From Escherichia phage chee24: 64,000 nucleotides of DNA. This document shows, piece after piece, positions 30,925-41,893 of this stretch. Position 1 is the stretch's first letter. Each line of letters opens with the position of its first letter. Below the pieces are notes generated by a model. It was not told where the DNA came from and searched no databases. It was given only the letters and a program-made list of their open reading frames with translations. The stretch is from sequence record NC_047885.1. The stretch is one strand, 5' to 3'. Made by a program: the position numbers and the translations under genes.

Positions 30925-31015
30925 TGGCGGAAGAGGAGAGATTTGAACTCTCAAGCCGTTTTACCAGTCAGCCACTTTCCAAGCGGTTTTCGTCGCCAAT
31001 TCGATTTGCTCTTCC
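30925..31015 (-). tRNA. tRNA-Ser (GGA), class II
   Basis: 91 nt; perfect T-arm GAGAG-TTCAAAT-CTCTC; anticodon loop TTGGAAA; long variable arm; resembles E. coli tRNA-Ser architecture. Confidence 0.55.
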
Positions 31016-31127
31016 AATAATAAGATGATGCCTCTATCACGCCAGACAGTTACGCCTCGCTGGGATTCGAACCCATTAAAACAGCTCAACCGAGATAGTA
31101 GGTTTAATTTACTCTGACCATCAAATT

Positions 31128-31204
31128 TGGTGCGTGACAAGGGATTCGAACCCTCAAAACCCGACTTCTAAGGACGGTATGTATGCCAATTCCATCAATC
31201 ACGC
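31128..31204 (-). tRNA. tRNA with anticodon TAG (Leu-type anticodon, class I shape)
   Basis: 77 nt; 7-bp acceptor, T-loop TTCGAAT, anticodon loop CTTAGAA, discriminator A; short variable arm. Confidence 0.5.
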
Positions 31205-31209
31205 GTATT

Positions 31210-31288
31210 TGGTGGAGGATAACGAATTCGAATCGTTCTGATGTCCTCGGTGCAAGCGAGGTGTCCACTCCCAGCAGACCCATCCCCC
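31210..31288 (-). tRNA. tRNA-Ala (TGC)
   Basis: Hand-folded; anticodon arm CCTCG-CTTGCAC-CGAGG; G3-U70 pair in acceptor stem. Confidence 0.65.
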
Positions 31289-31546
31289 AAAATCTTTAGT
31301 TTACTAAGGCTATTAGCTCGGCGTAACTACAGCACCTTCGCTTCGAGCGGAAGGAACTGCGTCATCTCGCAAACCCGATACACTATTCAGTTGCCATGAA
31401 TCTAGTGGACTAATCTAGAACTTCTCCCAAATCGTAGGGATCGTGCTTTTTGGCAGCCAGTCCTAGGTCGAGCTAATACCTTAGTGAACTATGATGAGGA
31501 TTTCTCCCCATCAATTTATATAAATATTATAACAAGAAATTAAGCA

Positions 31547-31906
31547 TTAAGCAAGTACATTTTTGCAGATTTCTTGTAATTCCTTTACATCACGAACGTA
31601 AAGGTAGTCTGAACTTCCAGAGTGCATACTTTGCATAAACACACCCTCATCTGGCGCAGTATCCTTCAGAGTAATTCCTAACCAAAAAGCGGCAAAACGA
31701 GGTGTTACCTCACCTTGACTTGCCTTGAATACATCGGCTTCTGTGATCTCCTGACCAGTAGAAAGTCCCATATACGGTACGTTCAGATCAATATCTTTGT
31801 AGAATTCAGCTAGGTCTTGTTCGAAGTCCCAACCTTTAGAGATAGCGAACTCTATTGTTACATGACCGAAATAGCCTTGAACCTTGCTTGATAATTGCAT
31901 TTGCAA
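31547..31906 (-). CDS. hypothetical protein (119 aa)
   Basis: ORF. Confidence 0.5.
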   Translation of the reverse strand: MQMQLSSKVQGYFGHVTIEFAISKGWDFEQDLAEFYKDIDLNVPYMGLSTGQEITEADVFKASQGEVTPRFAAFWLGITLKDTAPDEGVFMQSMHSGSSDYLYVRDVKELQEICKNVLA

Positions 31907-31925
31907 TTCCTTATTTTGAGTTAAT

Positions 31926-31999
31926 TGGTACTCGGTGATAGAATCGAACTATCGCAACCGCCGTGTAAAGACGGGGTTCTCCCATTAAACTAACCGAGC
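31926..31999 (-). tRNA. tRNA-Val (TAC)
   Basis: Hand-folded; perfect T-arm GATAG-TTCGATT-CTATC; anticodon loop TTTACAC. Confidence 0.6.
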
Positions 32000-32132
32000 A
32001 AAAGATTTGCTACTAAAAATGCTTCGAACAGAAATTCACAAAATCCCGCTAAAAACATACCTATTGTAAAATCGGCAGAAAATACATAGGAATCTTTTAT
32101 TTTCTGCTTCATTAAGTAAAACCAGATAGTCA

Positions 32133-32450
32133 TTAAAATCTCTCCATTCTAAAGCCAATGAAGTAAGGTGCATTACACGGAACATGCTTAAGATCTTTAA
32201 GAGTAATTTTACGTCCTAAGCGTCGTTCCATACAAGTGAAACATAGAACAATATCTTTGGGCTGCTCTTTTCTTATCTGATCCCAGACCCAATCTTCAAC
32301 CATACACATTTCATGGTATTGTTCACAGTCTCGACAATAATGACACTGATGTTCTGGTACTTTTTGATTTTTAATACACAGTTCAGTAAAGCGTTTTCCG
32401 GCTCTGCCAGACATTTCTGATATTGTTTCTAGAACTTTGTTAATATTCAT
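32133..32450 (-). CDS. Cys/His-rich protein (105 aa)
   Basis: ORF with several Cys/His clusters. Confidence 0.45.
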   Translation of the reverse strand: MNINKVLETISEMSGRAGKRFTELCIKNQKVPEHQCHYCRDCEQYHEMCMVEDWVWDQIRKEQPKDIVLCFTCMERRLGRKITLKDLKHVPCNAPYFIGFRMERF

Positions 32451-32467
32451 AACAAATTCCTTTAAAT

Positions 32468-32546
32468 TGGTAGATCGCCTGGGACTCGAACCCAGAACCT
32501 TCCGATTAAAAGTCGGATGCTACTAAACCTATTGAGCTAGCGACCT
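32468..32546 (-). tRNA. tRNA-Lys (TTT)
   Basis: Hand-folded; anticodon arm TCCGA-CTTTTAA-TCGGA; T-arm CTGGG-TTCGAGT-CCCAG. Confidence 0.7.
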
Positions 32547-32739
32547 ATTAGTAGCCATTATATACTTCTTTAATAGAATAGACTTTTAGGTAAGAATGAT
32601 TAATCCCAAACTCCGCCATTACTTCTTTTTCATTTTTTCCATAATGTGCAAGTAAGAATCTTGAGGTATTATTACCTAAACGTTTGTCACTTACTACTAA
32701 TCGAAATACTTTCATTTCGAAATCCTCTATTAAAAGGGA

Positions 32740-32813
32740 AGCGGGTGCAGGAATCGAACCTACCTCTTTCTAGCTTATGAGACTAGCGATCTCTACCAGA
32801 GATCTAACCCGCA
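32740..32813 (-). tRNA. tRNA-Met/Ile2 (CAT)
   Basis: Hand-folded; anticodon arm CTAGT-CTCATAA-GCTAG; CCA not encoded; acceptor register uncertain. Confidence 0.55.
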
Positions 32814-32819
32814 ATTGTT

Positions 32820-32895
32820 TGGTCAGTGCGGCAGGACTCGAACCTGCGACCCGAAGCATCCAAGGCTCCCACGCTACCAACTGCGCTACGCACTG
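32820..32895 (-). tRNA. tRNA-Pro (TGG)
   Basis: Hand-folded; perfect acceptor; D-arm GCGC-AGTTGGTA-GCGT; anticodon loop CTTGGAT. Confidence 0.7.
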
Positions 32896-33347
32896 TTAAT
32901 TTTGTTAACTCACTTTATAAGATATATTATACAGAGAATTAAGTAAAATAGCAAATGAATTTTTAATAAATTTACTTATTATGTAGGCCGCCTGGAGGCT
33001 ACCAACCCCACGGCTGACAAAGAAGTTTGCGAGACTTCTCTTAAAAGCCAGAATAGACCCGCCGGTCTATCGGAACCTACATAATAAGTAAACTTTATAG
33101 TGTCATTCTAGGCAGGACTCGAACCTGCTATCACTTGTGCGGACTTACGAGAACCATTCTTTCACTCGAATCGAACGAGCTTCTGCCCTCGCCAAGCTGG
33201 TTTCCCCCATCAACCACGCTAGAATGTTAGATTGTTTTCAGTGCAAGAGTCCGAGTCTTGGACACGACCGCTTCGCAAGTACATAGGCAGCTTATCATGA
33301 GTCAGCACTTCCGAATTGCTAGCTCCGTGTTCTGCACTGAAATTTTA

Positions 33348-33695
33348 TTAGTTTAATCGTAAAGTATTATCTACTTCACCATTAATTGTTCGGCATTCCT
33401 CTGGAATTGCCGGGGTGGCCTTGTATTCCCACCATTCAGCACCGTCATATTCCCCACGTTCTAGCCAAGTTCCATCGGCAAACCATACATTACCATAAAG
33501 TAATTGTCCGCCGTATCCAGAATCATATTCAAAGTCTAGGTTATTAAGAAAATCCTCAATATCTTCTTCTGTATAGCCTAAAGGTAATACCCAGACTTTT
33601 TTGTCCCCATAATACCCAAATTCTATTTTAATACACTTAACTTCAGAATTAGTATTTTTTAAGGCAAGTAACAGCTCTTCTTTAGCATTACGCAT
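33348..33695 (-). CDS. hypothetical protein (115 aa)
   Basis: ORF. Confidence 0.5.
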   Translation of the reverse strand: MRNAKEELLLALKNTNSEVKCIKIEFGYYGDKKVWVLPLGYTEEDIEDFLNNLDFEYDSGYGGQLLYGNVWFADGTWLERGEYDGAEWWEYKATPAIPEECRTINGEVDNTLRLN

Positions 33696-33720
33696 AATAT
33701 ATTCTCATACTGAATTAATT

Positions 33721-33797
33721 TGGCGCGACCGATGGGATTTGAACCCACATTCTCTCCCGTGACAGGGGAGTACCATTACCAAGCCAGCCCCGGTCGC
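33721..33797 (-). tRNA. tRNA-Asp (GTC)
   Basis: Hand-folded; anticodon arm CTCCC-CTGTCAC-GGGAG; T-loop TTCAAAT. Confidence 0.7.
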
Positions 33798-33806
33798 ATA
33801 ATTTAT

Positions 33807-33992
33807 TTACTCAGCTTTGAGTTTTTCAATAGCTGCATTAAGTTCTTTAAGAAACTCTTTTCGTACATTAAGACGATTGAGACTTACTAGTATATCATGT
33901 TTAAGTTCTTCGATGTATTTCTTCTCAACTTCAATATTGTTGATAGTACTATCACGATGAACTTCTAGCTGCGCAATCACATTCTTGGACAT
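33807..33992 (-). CDS. hypothetical protein (61 aa)
   Basis: ORF. Confidence 0.4.
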   Translation of the reverse strand: MSKNVIAQLEVHRDSTINNIEVEKKYIEELKHDILVSLNRLNVRKEFLKELNAAIEKLKAE

Positions 33993-34094
33993 GCTTGTTT
34001 CCTCAGTTATTAATGAAAATGGTATCTGTGGCTGAATTCGATGTCAGCAATGATAGCTGGTTGGCTACCGGTTTACTTAACTCTACACAGAATT

Positions 34095-34172
34095 TGGCGG
34101 TTCCTGCTGGATTCGAACCAGCAACCCTCAACTTAACAAGATGCCGCTCTAACCAATTAGAGCTAAGGAACC
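34095..34172 (-). tRNA. tRNA-Asn (GTT)
   Basis: Hand-folded; perfect T-arm GCTGG-TTCGAAT-CCAGC; anticodon loop TTGTTAA; anticodon stem imperfect. Confidence 0.55.
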
Positions 34173-34667
34173 ATATAAGTCAGAACTAGAGTTAATACGT
34201 CCTAGATATTTACTAAGATCCCTAGAATTTATACTAAACCACTCATGTTCTTTTAAATCTTTGAAATACTGGTGAATTAGTTTTTCACCTTTTCGTTTGT
34301 CAAACCAAAAAGACCAATGCTCTAACTTATAATCCCTATAGGGGGAATAAGTCTGATATTGAGCTAATCTCTCTTTTGGATTTTGACTCATACCTATTTT
34401 ATACTGATTTTTCCATGCAGGATTACTAATACAGTATACAAAACCTTCGGAAATAGGAAGTTTATTTTCCTGCTTAAACTTTATAAAGGAAAGTGCAGCA
34501 AGTTTTCTTGAATACATAGTATTCGTATTCTTTTTGGTATTACCATTGGTTCCTGAAAGATTTATATATTCTTCTATAAATCTCTGGATTAGTTCTGCGG
34601 TTATATAGAAGGGCTCATTAGTAACAACGCCTTTCTTTACCAAACTATCAAAAACTTTTGTATGCAC
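34149..34667 (-). CDS. T5orf172-domain (GIY-YIG-like) protein
   Basis: 172 aa; the Pfam T5orf172 family is named after a 172-aa ORF of phage T5; 3' end overlaps tRNA-Asn call by about 24 nt. Confidence 0.6.
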   Translation of the reverse strand: MHTKVFDSLVKKGVVTNEPFYITAELIQRFIEEYINLSGTNGNTKKNTNTMYSRKLAALSFIKFKQENKLPISEGFVYCISNPAWKNQYKIGMSQNPKERLAQYQTYSPYRDYKLEHWSFWFDKRKGEKLIHQYFKDLKEHEWFSINSRDLSKYLGRINSSSDLYGSLALIG

Positions 34668-34688
34668 TACTTCTTTCCTTTAGTAATT

Positions 34689-34764
34689 TGGACGACCGCA
34701 TGAGATTTGAACTCACATAAAAAGGATTTGCAATCCTTCGCCTAAGCCATTCAGCCAACGGTCG
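34689..34764 (-). tRNA. tRNA-Cys (GCA)
   Basis: Hand-folded; anticodon arm AAGGA-TTGCAAA-TCCTT; T-loop TTCAAAT. Confidence 0.7.
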
Positions 34765-34942
34765 ATTTATCTTGTTTTTCGAGATCTTCAAATTCTAAAT
34801 CATTGAAGTTCCCTAGAGTACGGGAGTAGAACCCGTCTCCTACGTCATAGCCTGATTTACCACAATCACACATTTTAAACTCTCTATAACGAGTGAAAAT
34901 ATGTTCAGAACCACAACACTTAAATTTAACTAACATTTTCAT
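34751..34942 (-). CDS. Cys-containing small protein (63 aa)
   Basis: ORF. Confidence 0.4.
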   Translation of the reverse strand: MKMLVKFKCCGSEHIFTRYREFKMCDCGKSGYDVGDGFYSRTLGNFNDLEFEDLEKQDKSTVG

Positions 34943-35181
34943 TTAACACGCTCCGGTAAATCTTCGAGTTTATATTGGGTAGCCACATTAGCAGCATCTA
35001 GTAACAAACCCATATGTTTAAGAATCCTGGTGATAGCCTCGCCTTCTGCTTCTTCTACAAAGCAACGTAGATTAACGAAGTCAATACCACCATCCATACC
35101 AGAGAAAATGTTTAGTAAGCGAAACATTACCAGCTTACGTTCTTTCAATTCTTGTTCTGTCATGTTGCTTCTCCAGTTCAA
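34939..35181 (-). CDS. hypothetical protein (80 aa)
   Basis: ORF. Confidence 0.45.
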   Translation of the reverse strand: MNWRSNMTEQELKERKLVMFRLLNIFSGMDGGIDFVNLRCFVEEAEGEAITRILKHMGLLLDAANVATQYKLEDLPERVK

Positions 35182-35213
35182 TTTATGTAATTATTATATA
35201 GAACTTTTGGAAA

Positions 35214-35501
35214 CTAAGCAACTACATTTTTTAGGAATTTGATCCCTTTCTTTTTCTTCTTATATTTCCACGTTAATGGATTCTGTCGATTATGAACGCT
35301 TGAGATCTTTGTCTCGTCAAAGTTCTTCAATATCATGTAATCACAGGATAATTGTTCTAGTGGAATGTGATCACCGTCAAAAGCGTATACATAAGGCTGT
35401 TGACTAGCACGATAATGATAGACTTTGTTAATTCTACGTTTCAGCGACTTATCCGCGCAGTAAATAAAGAAGTTTTCAGGATGCATCAGCATCTCCTTCA
35501 A
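35214..35501 (-). CDS. hypothetical protein (95 aa)
   Basis: ORF. Confidence 0.45.
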   Translation of the reverse strand: MKEMLMHPENFFIYCADKSLKRRINKVYHYRASQQPYVYAFDGDHIPLEQLSCDYMILKNFDETKISSVHNRQNPLTWKYKKKKKGIKFLKNVVA

Positions 35502-35503
35502 TT

Positions 35504-35578
35504 TGGTGCACCCTGTTCGTATCGAACGAACCTCTCAAGCTCTTCAGGCAAGCGCTAATCCATCTCAGCTAAAGGTGC
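35504..35578 (-). tRNA. tRNA-Phe (GAA)
   Basis: Hand-folded; anticodon loop CTGAAGA; T-arm GTTCG-TTCGATA-CGAAC; anticodon stem has mismatches. Confidence 0.5.
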
Positions 35579-35584
35579 AAATTT

Positions 35585-35660
35585 TGGCAAACCCACTAGG
35601 ACTCGAACCTAGACCGTACGGTTTTGGAGACCGACATGCTGTCCAGTAACACTCTAGGAA
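35585..35660 (-). other. tRNA-Trp-like 3' portion (anticodon CCA) lacking a pairing 5' acceptor strand
   Basis: T-arm CTAGG-TTCGAGT-CCTAG, CCA end and CGGTCTCCAAAACCG anticodon region resembling tRNA-Trp; no complementary 5' acceptor found. Confidence 0.35.
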
Positions 35661-35669
35661 TGCAGAAAT

Positions 35670-35763
35670 TGGTACACCCACGGAGAATTGAACTCCGATT
35701 CTCAGATTGAACTCCGATTCTCAGATTGAAATCCTGATGTCCTAGCCATTAGACGATAGGTGT
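35670..35763 (-). tRNA. tRNA-Glu (TTC) carrying a 19-nt tandem duplication
   Basis: 94 nt; acceptor, D-arm and anticodon arm TCAGG-ATTTCAA-TCTGA intact; unit ATTGAACTCCGATTCTCAG repeated at 35687-35705 and 35706-35724. Confidence 0.5.
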
Positions 35764-35771
35764 ATTAAATT

Positions 35772-35859
35772 TGGTGGGCGTTAATGGAGTCGAACCACTC
35801 GAGTCGCAATGACCAGGGATTTACAATCCCCTCCGCTACCACTTACGGAATAAACGCCC
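35772..35859 (-). tRNA. tRNA-Tyr (GTA), class II
   Basis: 88 nt; anticodon arm GGGGA-TTGTAAA-TCCCT; long variable arm; perfect acceptor. Confidence 0.65.
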
Positions 35860-35987
35860 ATATTTAGAAGCATTCAAATACTTGTTTAAACACTTTTAAA
35901 TATGTTTCCGAATTAGATAACTATTATACCAAGTTTTAAGGCACTGAGCAAGTCAAATTTTAAAGAACTTGCTCAGTGCTGTATTAG

Positions 35988-36263
35988 TTAGTCGAACTTA
36001 GGAGTGATAGTTAAGGAGAACGGAAGTTCGAAAACTTCTTCGCCCTCATTACTAACGGTAACTACACGACCTTTAAGTTCAGACATTAAAATATCAATAT
36101 CAGCTTTTGCATCTGGAGCCATGCCAGCTTCAATACATTTAGCTTTAACTTCCGGTAAAAGCTCTACGTTATAGAGATAGAGCCACTCAATCTCACCTTC
36201 CCAGTCTTCCCAGGATTTGCAGATTGCACTTTCAATACCAGTTGCTACAACACGATTTTGCAT
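35988..36263 (-). CDS. hypothetical protein (91 aa)
   Basis: ORF. Confidence 0.5.
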   Translation of the reverse strand: MQNRVVATGIESAICKSWEDWEGEIEWLYLYNVELLPEVKAKCIEAGMAPDAKADIDILMSELKGRVVTVSNEGEEVFELPFSLTITPKFD

Positions 36264-36353
36264 TAATTAACTCCTTCATCAATTTATATAACTATTATAC
36301 CAGAAATTTAAAGTAAAAGGCAAGTACATTTTTAAAAATTCTGTTTGGAGGAG

Positions 36354-36560
36354 CTAAACTCCAGATTTTTCGGCCAAGTCTAGACTAATAAGAGTTATAG
36401 CCATAATTGCTGCACCGTGTTCTTTTTCTCCGGTGTTTTTAGCAGAGTCTATAATATCCTTAATCTGTTCGTAATAACTTTTTACTTCTTGTTCAATGCC
36501 TGCCTCGGCTATCATGCCTTTAGCCATGAATCGTTGCATGGTAATTTCAGGATTAGCCAT
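36354..36560 (-). CDS. hypothetical protein (68 aa)
   Basis: ORF. Confidence 0.4.
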   Translation of the reverse strand: MANPEITMQRFMAKGMIAEAGIEQEVKSYYEQIKDIIDSAKNTGEKEHGAAIMAITLISLDLAEKSGV

Positions 36561-36735
36561 GTTGTTTCTCCAGTTTCATTTTTAATAGTTTACAGATGAA
36601 ATCAACGTCTTCATCTGTGCCTAAGTCTCTATCCTCAAGGGTCGCCTTGAAGTTTTTCGTCAATTCCATGAGGATGACTTCCCTAGAACGACGTGTTGGC
36701 GGAGGTGGATGTCTATACATCTTATTTCCTTAATT

Positions 36736-36812
36736 TGGTAGGGGTGGTGGGATTCGAACCCACAAAACCTGAATTTTAAGTCCAGTACCTATGCCAATTC
36801 GATTACACCCCC
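36736..36812 (-). tRNA. tRNA with anticodon TAA (Leu-type anticodon, class I shape)
   Basis: Hand-folded; acceptor GGGGGTG/CACCCCT, T-arm GTGGG-TTCGAAT-CCCAC, anticodon arm CTGGA-CTTAAAA-TTCAG, discriminator A. Confidence 0.5.
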
Positions 36813-37107
36813 ATGTAATCAGTTTATTAGTTGATACATATTATAGCCTAAAGAAAACCCTACTACTAATCCTACGAACCAACCAATATAATAATCTTTT
36901 AATTTCACGGGTGTCAACCTCGTTCAATATCTAGAGAAATACCACAGGTAGGATTAATGCCTGTGCCTTTGCACGTCGGACAAACCCAGATATTACAGAA
37001 TGTATCCCCTGCTTCTGCATCAGAACTTTTCCAACTCCTAGACAGTTAGGACAGGCACATTCTTCTAGCTCTTGCTTGAGTTCTTGAAACTTAGACATAT
37101 AGTTTCC

Positions 37108-41095: not shown

Positions 41096-41597
41096 TTTAA
41101 GTATTTTTAAGAACTCTCGTAAAAACTCTTAAAAATACAGACGATACCGGGAGAGTCATAAGTCTCACTCATTAAGTATTTCAAGACAAAATACAGTAAC
41201 GTCTATTATTTTCCAGTTTAAGTCAAGGTGACTTAGTGGTTATGTCCTGCGGTATACTGAGGACTAGGTTAGGTTAGGGTCATGACTCCCCACCTTTTTG
41301 CTGCTACTCAACAGGAGTTATCGCGAATTACCTGTGCTATTGTGCACCATTAGTGGCATCTCTCATGCCAGCATTTCCCACTTTGTGGATAGTTTGAAAA
41401 ACTACTCCGATATGGAGAAAGAACTTCACTATCCTAGAATACCTTCTAAAGTTCTTCTTTAGCCTGGACATAGTTAAATCGTAATAAAACTATTCAGCAG
41501 ACTGGTTGGTTAGTCTGGAACCAACTACCGCGTGGTTTAGGCAGTGCGCAACTAACCTCGGAAGCTTTTACATTAAAAGCACCAGTTATCCAGTTCT

Positions 41598-41670
41598 TAC
41601 CGACCGTAGGATTCGAACCTACATCTTCCACCAGTTACGGCTTGATAATACCGTTTTATACTAGATCGGC
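41598..41670 (-). other. tRNA-like element (acceptor and perfect T-arm; anticodon arm unresolved)
   Basis: T-arm GTAGG-TTCGAAT-CCTAC and acceptor GCCGATC/GGTCGGT; CCA not encoded. Confidence 0.35.
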
Positions 41671-41893
41671 AGTGTTACTACATAAGTGATTTCCACACCC
41701 CACTATCAGTAAATTAGAGAAGAGTTTAGGGGAGAGGTTTCAGACGCCCCATTTTACACGTTCTAGCCACTAACCGGGATTGCCGCCCCCTGTGTACTAG
41801 TTTTCCAACTAACCCACCGACTCTATTCAATGCGCTCCGGTTGGGATTCTGCACTCAGCGTAATCGGCTCGCTGTTCTCTAATTTATGAATAT

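What the first reader, a model, noticed from the sequence alone, without database searches (positions are those of the whole stretch)
31128..36812. Two class-I-shaped tRNAs carrying leucine anticodons (TAG and TAA)
The tRNAs at 31128-31204 and 36736-36812 fold with short variable arms and discriminator A73 but have anticodons TAG and TAA. Bacterial tRNA-Leu normally has a long variable arm. These could be unusual isoacceptors, mischarged tRNAs, or hand-folding errors.
Basis: partly seen in the sequence, partly recalled or inferred. Interest (0 to 1): 0.5.

Follow-up and report, generated by a model that had tools for sequence, protein, structure and literature searches.

The report
Phage leucine tRNAs lacking the long arm
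A T5-like phage carries two real leucine tRNA genes that lack the long extra arm normal for bacterial leucine tRNAs but keep every feature the E. coli charging enzyme needs, and the same arm-less form turns out to be common in phages, so this is an under-described variant rather than an error.

Summary
ARAGORN and the Rfam tRNA model call tRNAs at exactly 31128-31204(-) and 36736-36812(-), with anticodons UAG and UAA, 5-nt variable loops (GUUUU), A73 and encoded CCA.

The window is 100% identical to the T5-like phage pork27 (Tequintavirus), and these are its only two Leu tRNAs.

They are not hand-folding errors. I found no sign of mischarging either. Both keep the Leu-specific D arm (3-bp stem, 11-nt loop GAAUUGGCAUA, as in E. 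coli leuW and leuZ). They also keep every published E. coli LeuRS determinant: A73, U8:A14, A15-U48, G18G19, A20a and the D/T-loop pairs. The long arm is known to be dispensable for that enzyme.

Relatives occur in hundreds of T5-like phages, in Mooglevirus, Vequintavirinae, Vibrio and Pseudomonas phages, and in about 28% of sampled IMG/VR contigs with this type of Leu tRNA. All 20 stem pairs show compensatory changes. Ser and Tyr tRNAs in these phages stay long-armed.

The window's long ORFs use CUA and UUA far more than E. coli does.

Best reading: these are genuine leucine tRNAs charged by host LeuRS. Charging was not tested. Type-I tRNA-Leu is already known from mitochondria and Streptomyces, so this is a new member of a known kind, of moderate interest.

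The parts
31128..31204 (-). tRNA-Leu(UAG), class-I shape, 77 nt including the encoded CCA. Sequence: GCGUGAU UG AUG GAAUUGGCAUA CAU A CCGUC CUUAGAA GUCGG GUUUU GAGGG UUCGAAU CCCUU GUCACGC A CCA. Anticodon at 31170-31168. It has a U30.U40 mismatch, and A37 where E. coli leuW has G37.
   Evidence: ARAGORN; Rfam 47.5 bits; GenBank tRNA-Leu; at least 95% identical in 160 phage records.
36736..36812 (-). tRNA-Leu(UAA), class-I shape, 77 nt including the encoded CCA. Sequence: GGGGGUG UA AUC GAAUUGGCAUA GGU A CUGGA CUUAAAA UUCAG GUUUU GUGGG UUCGAAU CCCAC CACCCCU A CCA. Anticodon at 36778-36776. The A36-A37-A38 loop matches that of E. coli leuZ.
   Evidence: ARAGORN; Rfam 57.4 bits; at least 95% identical in 324 phage records.
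31210..31288 (-). tRNA-Ala(UGC), 79 nt, lying 5 nt upstream of Leu(UAG). The two form an Ala-CCAAAU-Leu cassette that is shared with Cronobacter phage EspYZU14 and replaced by a different Ala plus an 85-nt Leu in phage T5.
   Evidence: and alignment A5.
36888..36917 (-). Best sigma-70-like site in the region (TTGACA-18-TATTAT, 11 of 12 matches), about 75 nt upstream of Leu(UAA). It is a possible promoter, but the evidence is weak.
   Evidence: The total number of promoter-like sites in the region is no higher than in shuffled sequence.

Best explanation
Both genes encode functional leucine-accepting tRNAs of a phage-borne 'type I' form. This is a tRNA-Leu body whose long variable arm has been reduced to a 5-nt loop, while the Leu-specific D arm, the A15-U48 pair, the G18G19/T-loop elbow and A73 are kept. 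The phage encodes no LeuRS that I noticed. The tRNAs are therefore most likely charged by the host's single LeuRS, which in E. coli reads A73 and the tertiary core and does not need the arm. They read UUA/UUG (anticodon UAA) and CUA/CUN (anticodon UAG), the Leu codons that this AT-rich phage uses far more than its host does. They may also back up host tRNAs lost during infection. Shown here: gene reality, class-I shape, conservation and covariation, presence of the identity elements, and the codon bias. Inferred, not shown: leucylation by host LeuRS, and use in translation.
For: (1) The shape and register are confirmed by two programs.
(2) Alignment with E. coli leuW and leuZ shows shared invariant U8, A14, G18, G19, A20a, U48, the T loop and A73. 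The difference is essentially a clean deletion of the arm (A2).
(3) The published E. coli LeuRS identity set is A73, A15-U48, G18G19, A20a, G18:U55, G19:C56 and U54:A58, with the long arm not required (PMC9976931 section 12; PMC6614811 introduction). Every element is present in both tRNAs.
(4) The D-arm signature (3-bp stem plus loop N-A-A-N-N-G-G-N-A-N-A) occurs in 114/154 class-I Leu and 23/55 class-II Leu tRNAs, but in only 6 of about 1,080 tRNAs of other isotypes in IMG/VR loci.
(5) In 68 distinct class-I Leu tRNAs, 99.2% of cells are paired, all 20 pairs have changes on both sides, and the covariation score is 1.02 against 0.27 in shuffles and at most 0.21 when partners are slid. A73 is invariant, and A15 and U48 are conserved in at least 90%.
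(6) The genes are conserved in phages grown on E. coli K-12, including JLBYU40, TrudiRoth and IrmaTschudi.
(7) In the same phages, Ser and Tyr tRNAs stay long-armed. From established knowledge, the enzymes for these two do use the arm.
(8) Published tRNAscan-SE isotype scores rank the Leu model first for all three class-I-shaped Leu tRNAs of phage Sf14 (PMC12482277 Table 2; sizes and shape checked).
(9) In the window's long ORFs, CUA is 19% and UUA 25% of Leu codons, against about 4% and 13% in E. coli K-12 (the E. coli values are from memory of the Kazusa table).
Against: There is no charging or expression data for these two tRNAs.
E. coli LeuRS failed to charge the Streptomyces coelicolor type-I tRNA-Leu(CAA), and that paper states EcLeuRS charges only type-II tRNA-Leu (PMC6614811). 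However, that tRNA system uses different identity elements (C74 rather than A73), and EcLeuRS had only 50% activity even on the Streptomyces type-II tRNA.
The crystal structure shows the EcLeuRS C-terminal domain touching the arm, so losing the arm may cost efficiency.
Leu(UAG) has a U.U mismatch in the anticodon stem and A37 instead of G37.
Single-sequence MFE folds are not cloverleaves.
The covariation set was selected by ARAGORN's layout, so the percentage paired is partly by construction.
Confidence: 0.8

Rival explanations
1. Counter-defence variant. The tRNAs are leucine tRNAs, but loss of the arm (with the changed anticodon loop, A37 in Leu(UAG)) is selected because it makes them invisible to host or rival-phage nucleases that recognise host class-II tRNA-Leu. 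They would then keep translation going when host tRNA-Leu is destroyed.
For: T5 tRNAs are shown to escape tRNA-cleaving immunity, for example T5 tRNA-Lys, Thr and Asn against PARIS AriB (PMC12409363). Phage tRNAs often carry anticodon-loop changes (PMC10264068; PMC12482277 Table 8). Loci with class-I Leu sit in large tRNA clusters, with a median of 9 tRNAs per locus against 4 for loci with only class-II Leu. Both class-I and class-II alleles of Leu(UAG) segregate at the same slot in T5-like phages.
Against: My searches turned up no bacterial defence nuclease that targets tRNA-Leu through its arm. The arm is dispensable for LeuRS, so neutral loss is enough to explain the shape. Chromosomal class-I tRNA-Leu in Actinobacteria shows the shape also exists outside any phage arms race.
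Confidence: 0.12
2. Mischarging or recoding. A class-I body with a Leu anticodon is charged by another synthetase, so that UUR or CUN codons in phage genes are read as a different amino acid, as with the yeast mitochondrial tRNA-Thr(UAG).
For: Precedents exist in mitochondria: tRNA-Thr(UAG) in yeast and tRNA-Ala(UAG) in Ashbya (PMC7609411). Overall sequence identity to class-II Leu tRNAs is only slightly higher than to other isotypes.
Against: Position 3:70 is G-C in both tRNAs, so AlaRS is excluded. There is no long arm for SerRS. The anticodons UAG and UAA lack the bases used by the Thr, Lys, Ile, Met, Val, Phe, Gln and Arg enzymes (established identity rules; review). The Leu-specific D arm and A73 are conserved family-wide. 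The anticodon loop is the normal 7 nt. The family spans the Leu anticodons UAG, UAA, CAA, CAG, GAG and AAG, which fits one amino acid.
Confidence: 0.03
3. Non-translational tRNA-like RNAs or decaying pseudogenes, with no role in decoding.
For: The T5 tRNA region does contain tRNA-like stable RNAs and degenerate tRNAs. Examples are rna1-3 and RNAX in T5, and in the window the tRNA-Glu with a 19-nt duplication and the weak Ser(GGA).
Against: The cloverleaf is intact, CCA is encoded and Rfam scores are high. The sequences are identical across hundreds of isolates. Compensatory substitutions across phage families indicate purifying selection on a folded tRNA. The anticodons match the phage's preferred Leu codons.
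Confidence: 0.05

Closest known systems
E. coli class-II tRNA-Leu (leuW, anticodon UAG, 85 nt; leuZ, anticodon UAA, 87 nt)
   Same: Same anticodons. Same 3-bp D stem and 11-nt D loop (GAAUUGGCAUA here, against AAAUUGGUAGA in leuW and GAAUCGGUAGA in leuZ). Same U8, A14, A15, G18G19, A20a, U48, T-loop pairs, A73 and CCA (A2).
   Different: The variable region is 5 nt instead of 13-15 nt and has no arm helix. Leu(UAG) has A37 rather than G37, C32 rather than U32, and a U30.U40 mismatch. There is no blastn-detectable similarity in 5,426 E. coli genomes.
Phage T5 tRNA-Leu1(UAG), 85 nt (NC_005859 31624-31708)
   Same: Same genomic slot, 5 nt downstream of tRNA-Ala, with the same CCAAAU spacer, the same anticodon and the same A37. 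The two sequences align end to end.
   Different: T5 keeps a 13-nt variable region. The stems differ by many compensated changes. T5 has no Leu(UAA) gene; the HNH endonuclease gene hegA sits in the region where the window has its Leu(UAA) gene. The T5 annotation records that an anticodon swap turns its tRNA into an amber suppressor. No such test exists for the class-I form.
Type-I tRNA-Leu(CAA) of Streptomyces coelicolor and other Actinobacteria (Fan et al. 2019, PMC6614811)
   Same: A bacterial-type tRNA-Leu with a 5-nt variable loop that coexists in one cytoplasm with class-II tRNA-Leu and a single LeuRS. It has the same CCC-AAUUGGCAGA-GG style of D arm seen in many phage relatives.
   Different: It is chromosomal and is charged by an actinobacterial LeuRS with an adapted leucine-specific domain. 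Identity in that system rests on C74, not A73. E. coli LeuRS did not charge it. The window's tRNAs must work with enterobacterial LeuRS.
Animal mitochondrial tRNA-Leu(UUR/CUN)
   Same: Class-I shape with Leu anticodons. A73 and A14 are identity elements.
   Different: A dedicated mitochondrial LeuRS, degenerate D and T loops, and no sequence relationship.
Minimalist and in-vitro-selected E. coli tRNA-Leu variants lacking the variable arm (Asahara 1998; Larkin 2002; both as summarised in PMC9976931)
   Same: Arm-less tRNA-Leu bodies that keep A73 and the D/T-loop core and are still leucylated by E. coli LeuRS.
   Different: Those are laboratory constructs, whereas these are natural, conserved genes. 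I could not read the original papers.

Membership tests
tRNA (Rfam RF00005) | Cloverleaf with a conserved T loop, G18G19 and a 7-nt anticodon loop, scoring above the gathering threshold | tested here: met
   47.5 and 57.4 bits against a gathering score of 29; ARAGORN cloverleaves.
Bacterial class-II tRNA-Leu | Long variable arm (more than 10 nt, with a helix) | tested here: not met
   The variable loop is 5 nt (GUUUU) in both. E. coli leuW and leuZ have 13 and 15 nt.
Bacterial class-II tRNA-Leu | Leu-type D arm: 3-bp stem and 11-nt loop, with A14, A15, G18G19 in a fixed register, and A20a | tested here: met
   Alignment A2. The signature is near-exclusive to Leu tRNAs.
E. coli LeuRS substrate (identity set) | Discriminator A73 | tested here: met
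   A73 is present in both tRNAs, in 150 of 157 class-I Leu relatives, and is invariant in A3.
E. coli LeuRS substrate (identity set) | Tertiary core: U8:A14, A15-U48, G18:U55, G19:C56, U54:A58 | tested here: met
   All of these bases are present. A15 and U48 are conserved in at least 90% of relatives. Whether the pairs actually form is inferred from sequence only.
E. coli LeuRS substrate (identity set) | Actual leucylation by the host enzyme | not testable with these tools
   This needs an aminoacylation assay or charged-tRNA sequencing. The only related datum is negative and concerns a different type-I tRNA.
Type-I (short-loop) tRNA-Leu | Leu anticodon on a body with a 4-5-nt variable loop, conserved as a gene family | tested here: met
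Nonsense suppressor tRNA | Anticodon complementary to a stop codon (CUA, UUA or UCA) | tested here: not met
   The anticodons are 5'-UAG-3' and 5'-UAA-3'. These pair with CUA and UUA, which are Leu codons.
tRNA-Ala-type anticodon-independent identity | G3:U70 pair | tested here: not met
   Position 3:70 is G-C in both tRNAs.
tRNA-Ser-type identity | Long variable arm plus G73 | tested here: not met
   Both tRNAs have a short loop and A73. The window's own Ser tRNAs are 89-90 nt.

The most novel reading that the evidence does not exclude
Loss of the arm is an adaptive disguise. Phage-borne type-I tRNA-Leu (with altered anticodon loops) would be a widespread class of immune-evasive tRNAs that escape nucleases recognising host class-II tRNA-Leu. 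Alternatively, it would let the phage distinguish its own tRNA-Leu from the host's, which would explain why about a quarter of sampled viral contigs with this type of Leu tRNA carry the arm-less form. A corollary is that enterobacterial LeuRS routinely charges natural type-I tRNA-Leu, contrary to the published statement that EcLeuRS charges only type II.
Probability: 0.1. Interest if true: 0.7.

Novelty: new member of a known kind. Interest (0 to 1): 0.35.

Why it matters
Textbooks and recent papers treat the long variable arm as a hallmark of bacterial tRNA-Leu. They name Streptomyces LeuRS as the only prokaryotic enzyme able to charge both tRNA-Leu types. Here natural, conserved, arm-less tRNA-Leu genes sit in well-studied coliphages (T5-like, Moogle-like, rV5-like) that grow on E. 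coli K-12, which has one LeuRS. If they are charged, as the sequence features predict, they are ready-made natural substrates. They would show that E. coli LeuRS accepts type-I tRNA-Leu in vivo, and they would give a simple system for asking what the arm is for. They are also compact Leu-tRNA scaffolds of possible use in tRNA engineering. For annotation, the practical message is that a short tRNA-Leu in a phage or a tRNA array is not an error. The finding does not change any major concept.

Tried and rejected
- Single-sequence MFE folding gave non-cloverleaf structures with weak z-scores and was not informative for tRNAs.
- Whole-body pairwise identity, with the anticodon masked and the variable region removed, against about 1,400 tRNAs ranked class-II Leu first among non-class-I tRNAs, but only marginally (0.73-0.76 against 0.72 for Gly, Lys and Ser). 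I used the D-arm signature instead.
- blastn of both tRNAs against 5,426 E. coli genomes found nothing, so there is no prophage or host copy.
- Six literature searches and reading of nine papers found no explicit description of class-I tRNA-Leu in phages or tRNA arrays. Subscription-only papers from the 1980s on T5 and BF23 tRNA sequences, and Larkin 2002, could not be read, so prior description cannot be excluded.
- Two fetches of Sf14 regions missed its tRNA cluster before one search found it.
- Two script calls failed for technical reasons.
- The suppressor-tRNA reading was rejected on anticodon polarity.
- No ORF longer than 59 aa overlaps either gene on either strand.
Full report
WHAT THE WINDOW IS. 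The 8 kb around the finding is 100% identical to 'Bacteriophage T5-like pork27' (MF431731, Tequintavirus) and four sibling isolates. Window coordinates equal record coordinates plus 1. The finding lies in the phage's tRNA region, where ARAGORN lists 26 tRNAs on the minus strand between 28038 and 41671.

CHECK OF THE OBSERVATION. The Rfam tRNA model scores them 47.5 and 57.4 bits against a gathering score of 29. ARAGORN's structure for both is a 7-bp acceptor stem, 3-bp D stem, 11-nt D loop, 5-bp anticodon stem, 7-nt loop, 5-nt variable loop (GUUUU) and 5-bp T stem, followed by A73 and an encoded CCA. These anticodons read the Leu codons CUA and UUA, not stop codons. GenBank also annotates both as tRNA-Leu. 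They are the only Leu tRNAs in the window, and both are short. Single-sequence MFE folding does not reproduce the cloverleaf, as is common for tRNA genes, so I give that no weight. No ORF longer than 59 aa overlaps either gene.

WHAT THEY RESEMBLE. Aligned with E. coli K-12 leuW (UAG, 85 nt) and leuZ (UAA, 87 nt), the two phage tRNAs differ essentially by a clean deletion of the variable arm. The shared invariant columns include U8, A14, G18, G19, the A two positions after G19 (A20a), U48, the T loop and A73 (A2). The D arm is the unusual one typical of tRNA-Leu, a 3-bp stem with an 11-nt loop. It reads GAAUUGGCAUA in both phage tRNAs, AAAUUGGUAGA in leuW and GAAUCGGUAGA in leuZ. I turned this into a test: a 3-bp stem plus the loop pattern N-A-A-N-N-G-G-N-A-N-A. 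In IMG/VR loci the pattern is present in 114/154 class-I Leu and 23/55 class-II Leu tRNAs, but in only 6 of about 1,080 tRNAs of all other isotypes. Overall sequence identity discriminates far less well.

IDENTITY RULES. The Giege and Eriani review summarises E. coli leucine identity. A73 is crucial, and neither the anticodon nor the long variable arm is. SELEX identified A15-U48, G18G19 and A20a as essential. [quoted passage not shown] The introduction of PMC6614811 gives the same list. Both window tRNAs have every one of these bases. They lack G3:U70 (AlaRS) and the long arm with G73 (SerRS), and their anticodons do not match the anticodon-reading synthetases. LeuRS is therefore the only plausible charging enzyme. 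This step is an inference from sequence, because charging was not and cannot be tested here. The main counter-datum is that E. coli LeuRS did not charge the Streptomyces coelicolor type-I tRNA-Leu(CAA), and the authors state that EcLeuRS charges only type II. That system is atypical, however. Its identity rests on C74 rather than A73, and EcLeuRS had only half activity even on the Streptomyces type-II tRNA.

RELATIVES.
- The class-I Leu(UAG) gene is at least 95% identical in 160 phage records and the class-I Leu(UAA) gene in 324. These include phages isolated on E. coli K-12.
- More distant but clearly homologous 77-79-nt Leu tRNAs occur in several other groups. Mooglevirus phages ESh21 and Sf14 each have three, with anticodons UAG, CAA and UAA. 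Cronobacter phage EspYZU14 (Vequintavirinae) has two. Vibrio phage River4 has one class-I and one class-II. Pseudomonas phage ZC03 also has one of each.
- In all these phages the Ser and Tyr tRNAs remain long-armed, as expected if only LeuRS can do without the arm.
- For Sf14, published tRNAscan-SE isotype scores rank the Leu model first for all three (67.4, 49.1 and 60.2; PMC12482277). That paper does not mention the variable arm.
- Phage T5 itself differs. At the same slot, 5 nt after tRNA-Ala, it has an 85-nt Leu(UAG) with a 13-nt variable region, and it has no Leu(UAA) gene. The T5-type allele is at least 95% identical in 52 records. Both shapes therefore segregate within Tequintavirus.
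- The window's Ala-CCAAAU-Leu cassette is closest to that of the Cronobacter phage, with compensated stem changes (A5).

WIDER CENSUS. ARAGORN finds 157 Leu tRNAs of 80 nt or less in those loci. Of these, 150 have A73, and the anticodons are UAG, CAA, UAA, GAG, AAG and CAG. When the pattern was relaxed to allow class-II spacing, 34 of the 120 contigs found in the same portion of the collection were class-I carriers, which is about 28%. Class-I loci lie in larger tRNA clusters. The hits were single chromosomal UAA or CAA genes in many Actinobacteria (Mycobacterium, Nocardia, Rhodococcus, Corynebacterium, Bifidobacterium, Streptomyces), plus long tRNA arrays in Acidobacteriota, cyanobacteria and others. 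Neither window tRNA has any blastn match in 5,426 complete E. coli genomes.

COVARIATION. For 68 distinct class-I Leu tRNAs with the window's layout (A3), the cloverleaf gives 99.2% paired cells. All 20 pairs have changes on both sides, and the covariation score is 1.02, against 0.27 in shuffles (0 of 500 reach the observed value) and at most 0.21 when partners are slid. Because the set was chosen by ARAGORN's layout, the paired percentage is partly by construction. The abundance of double changes is not.

LIKELY ROLE. In 51 long ORFs of the window, CUA makes up 19% and UUA 25% of Leu codons, and CUG only 17%. In E. coli K-12 the figures are about 4%, 13% and 50% (from memory of the Kazusa table). 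The two tRNAs therefore supply exactly the Leu decoders the phage needs most. T5 tRNAs are also known to rescue infection from tRNA-cleaving immunity, shown for Lys, Thr and Asn. Whether arm loss, or the A37 and U30.U40 features of Leu(UAG), helps in that way is untested. I keep it as the main rival and add-on explanation.

NOVELTY. Type-I tRNA-Leu is an established kind, known from animal mitochondria and from Streptomyces. The genes here are already annotated as tRNA-Leu. Six full-text searches found no paper pointing out that coliphage or tRNA-array Leu tRNAs lack the arm, although older subscription literature could not be checked. I classify the finding as a new member of a known kind, of moderate interest. 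It is real and conserved, it mildly contradicts a published generalisation about E. coli LeuRS, and it is fully in line with what has been known since the 1990s about that enzyme's indifference to the arm.

Noticed in passing
window 35670-35763 (-): The 'tRNA-Glu(UUC)' is 94 nt long because of a 19-nt tandem duplication (35687-35734, 2.5 copies, 96% match). The repeat runs from the 3' side of the anticodon stem to the 5' side of the T stem. This may be a disabled gene or a recent slippage event. T5's own tRNA-Glu is 77 nt and unrelated in sequence.
   Followed up: partly
window 30925-31015 (-): GenBank annotates a tRNA-Ser(GGA) here. By hand it has a perfect acceptor stem, G73 and CCA. ARAGORN does not list it, and Rfam gives no hit even at E<=1. 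The T5 annotation says its counterpart cannot be turned into an amber suppressor.
   Followed up: partly
window 31050-31085 (-): An orphan T arm plus a 3'-acceptor-like segment (GGGTTCGAATCCC AGCGAGGC) with no matching 5' half. It lies in the spacer between Ser(GGA) and Leu(UAG), where phage T5 carries the HNH endonuclease gene hegC. It may be a tRNA remnant.
   Followed up: no
window 41597-41671 (-): A tRNA-like element that ARAGORN calls 'Ser(act)', with an 8-bp acceptor stem (Rfam tRNA 34.5 bits). It overlaps the annotated small CDS P27_0079. The matching element in T5 lies inside the stable 'RNAX' of unknown function.
   Followed up: no
window 31120-31295 (-) and L004 7906-8081: The Ala(79 nt)-CCAAAT-Leu(UAG) cassette is shared between this Demerecviridae phage and Cronobacter phage EspYZU14 (Vequintavirinae). 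Phage T5 has a different Ala and an 85-nt Leu at the same slot. tRNA genes in this region therefore appear to be exchanged as small cassettes, often next to HNH homing endonuclease genes.
   Followed up: partly
window 31128-31204 (-), tRNA positions 30:40 and 37: Leu(UAG) has a U30.U40 mismatch that is kept in the Cronobacter and Shigella phage homologues while the neighbouring pair covaries. It also has A37 (loop CUUAGAA) where E. coli leuW has G37, so the m1G37 modification made by TrmD cannot form. CUUAGAA is the commonest loop among viral class-I Leu(UAG) tRNAs.
   Followed up: partly
L132-L251 (bacterial genome loci): Class-I tRNA-Leu(UAA or CAA) is a single chromosomal gene in many Actinobacteria, and several class-I Leu isoacceptors sit together in long tRNA arrays (up to 34 tRNAs in 8 kb) of Acidobacteriota, cyanobacteria, Polyangia and Mycobacterium. 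The shape is much commoner than textbook statements suggest.
   Followed up: partly
L002 17618-18052 (T5.081) and L005 9493-9936: A small protein annotated 'tRNA amidotransferase' lies beside or inside the tRNA cluster in both T5 and Vibrio phage River4. I did not examine its function or any link to the tRNAs.
   Followed up: no
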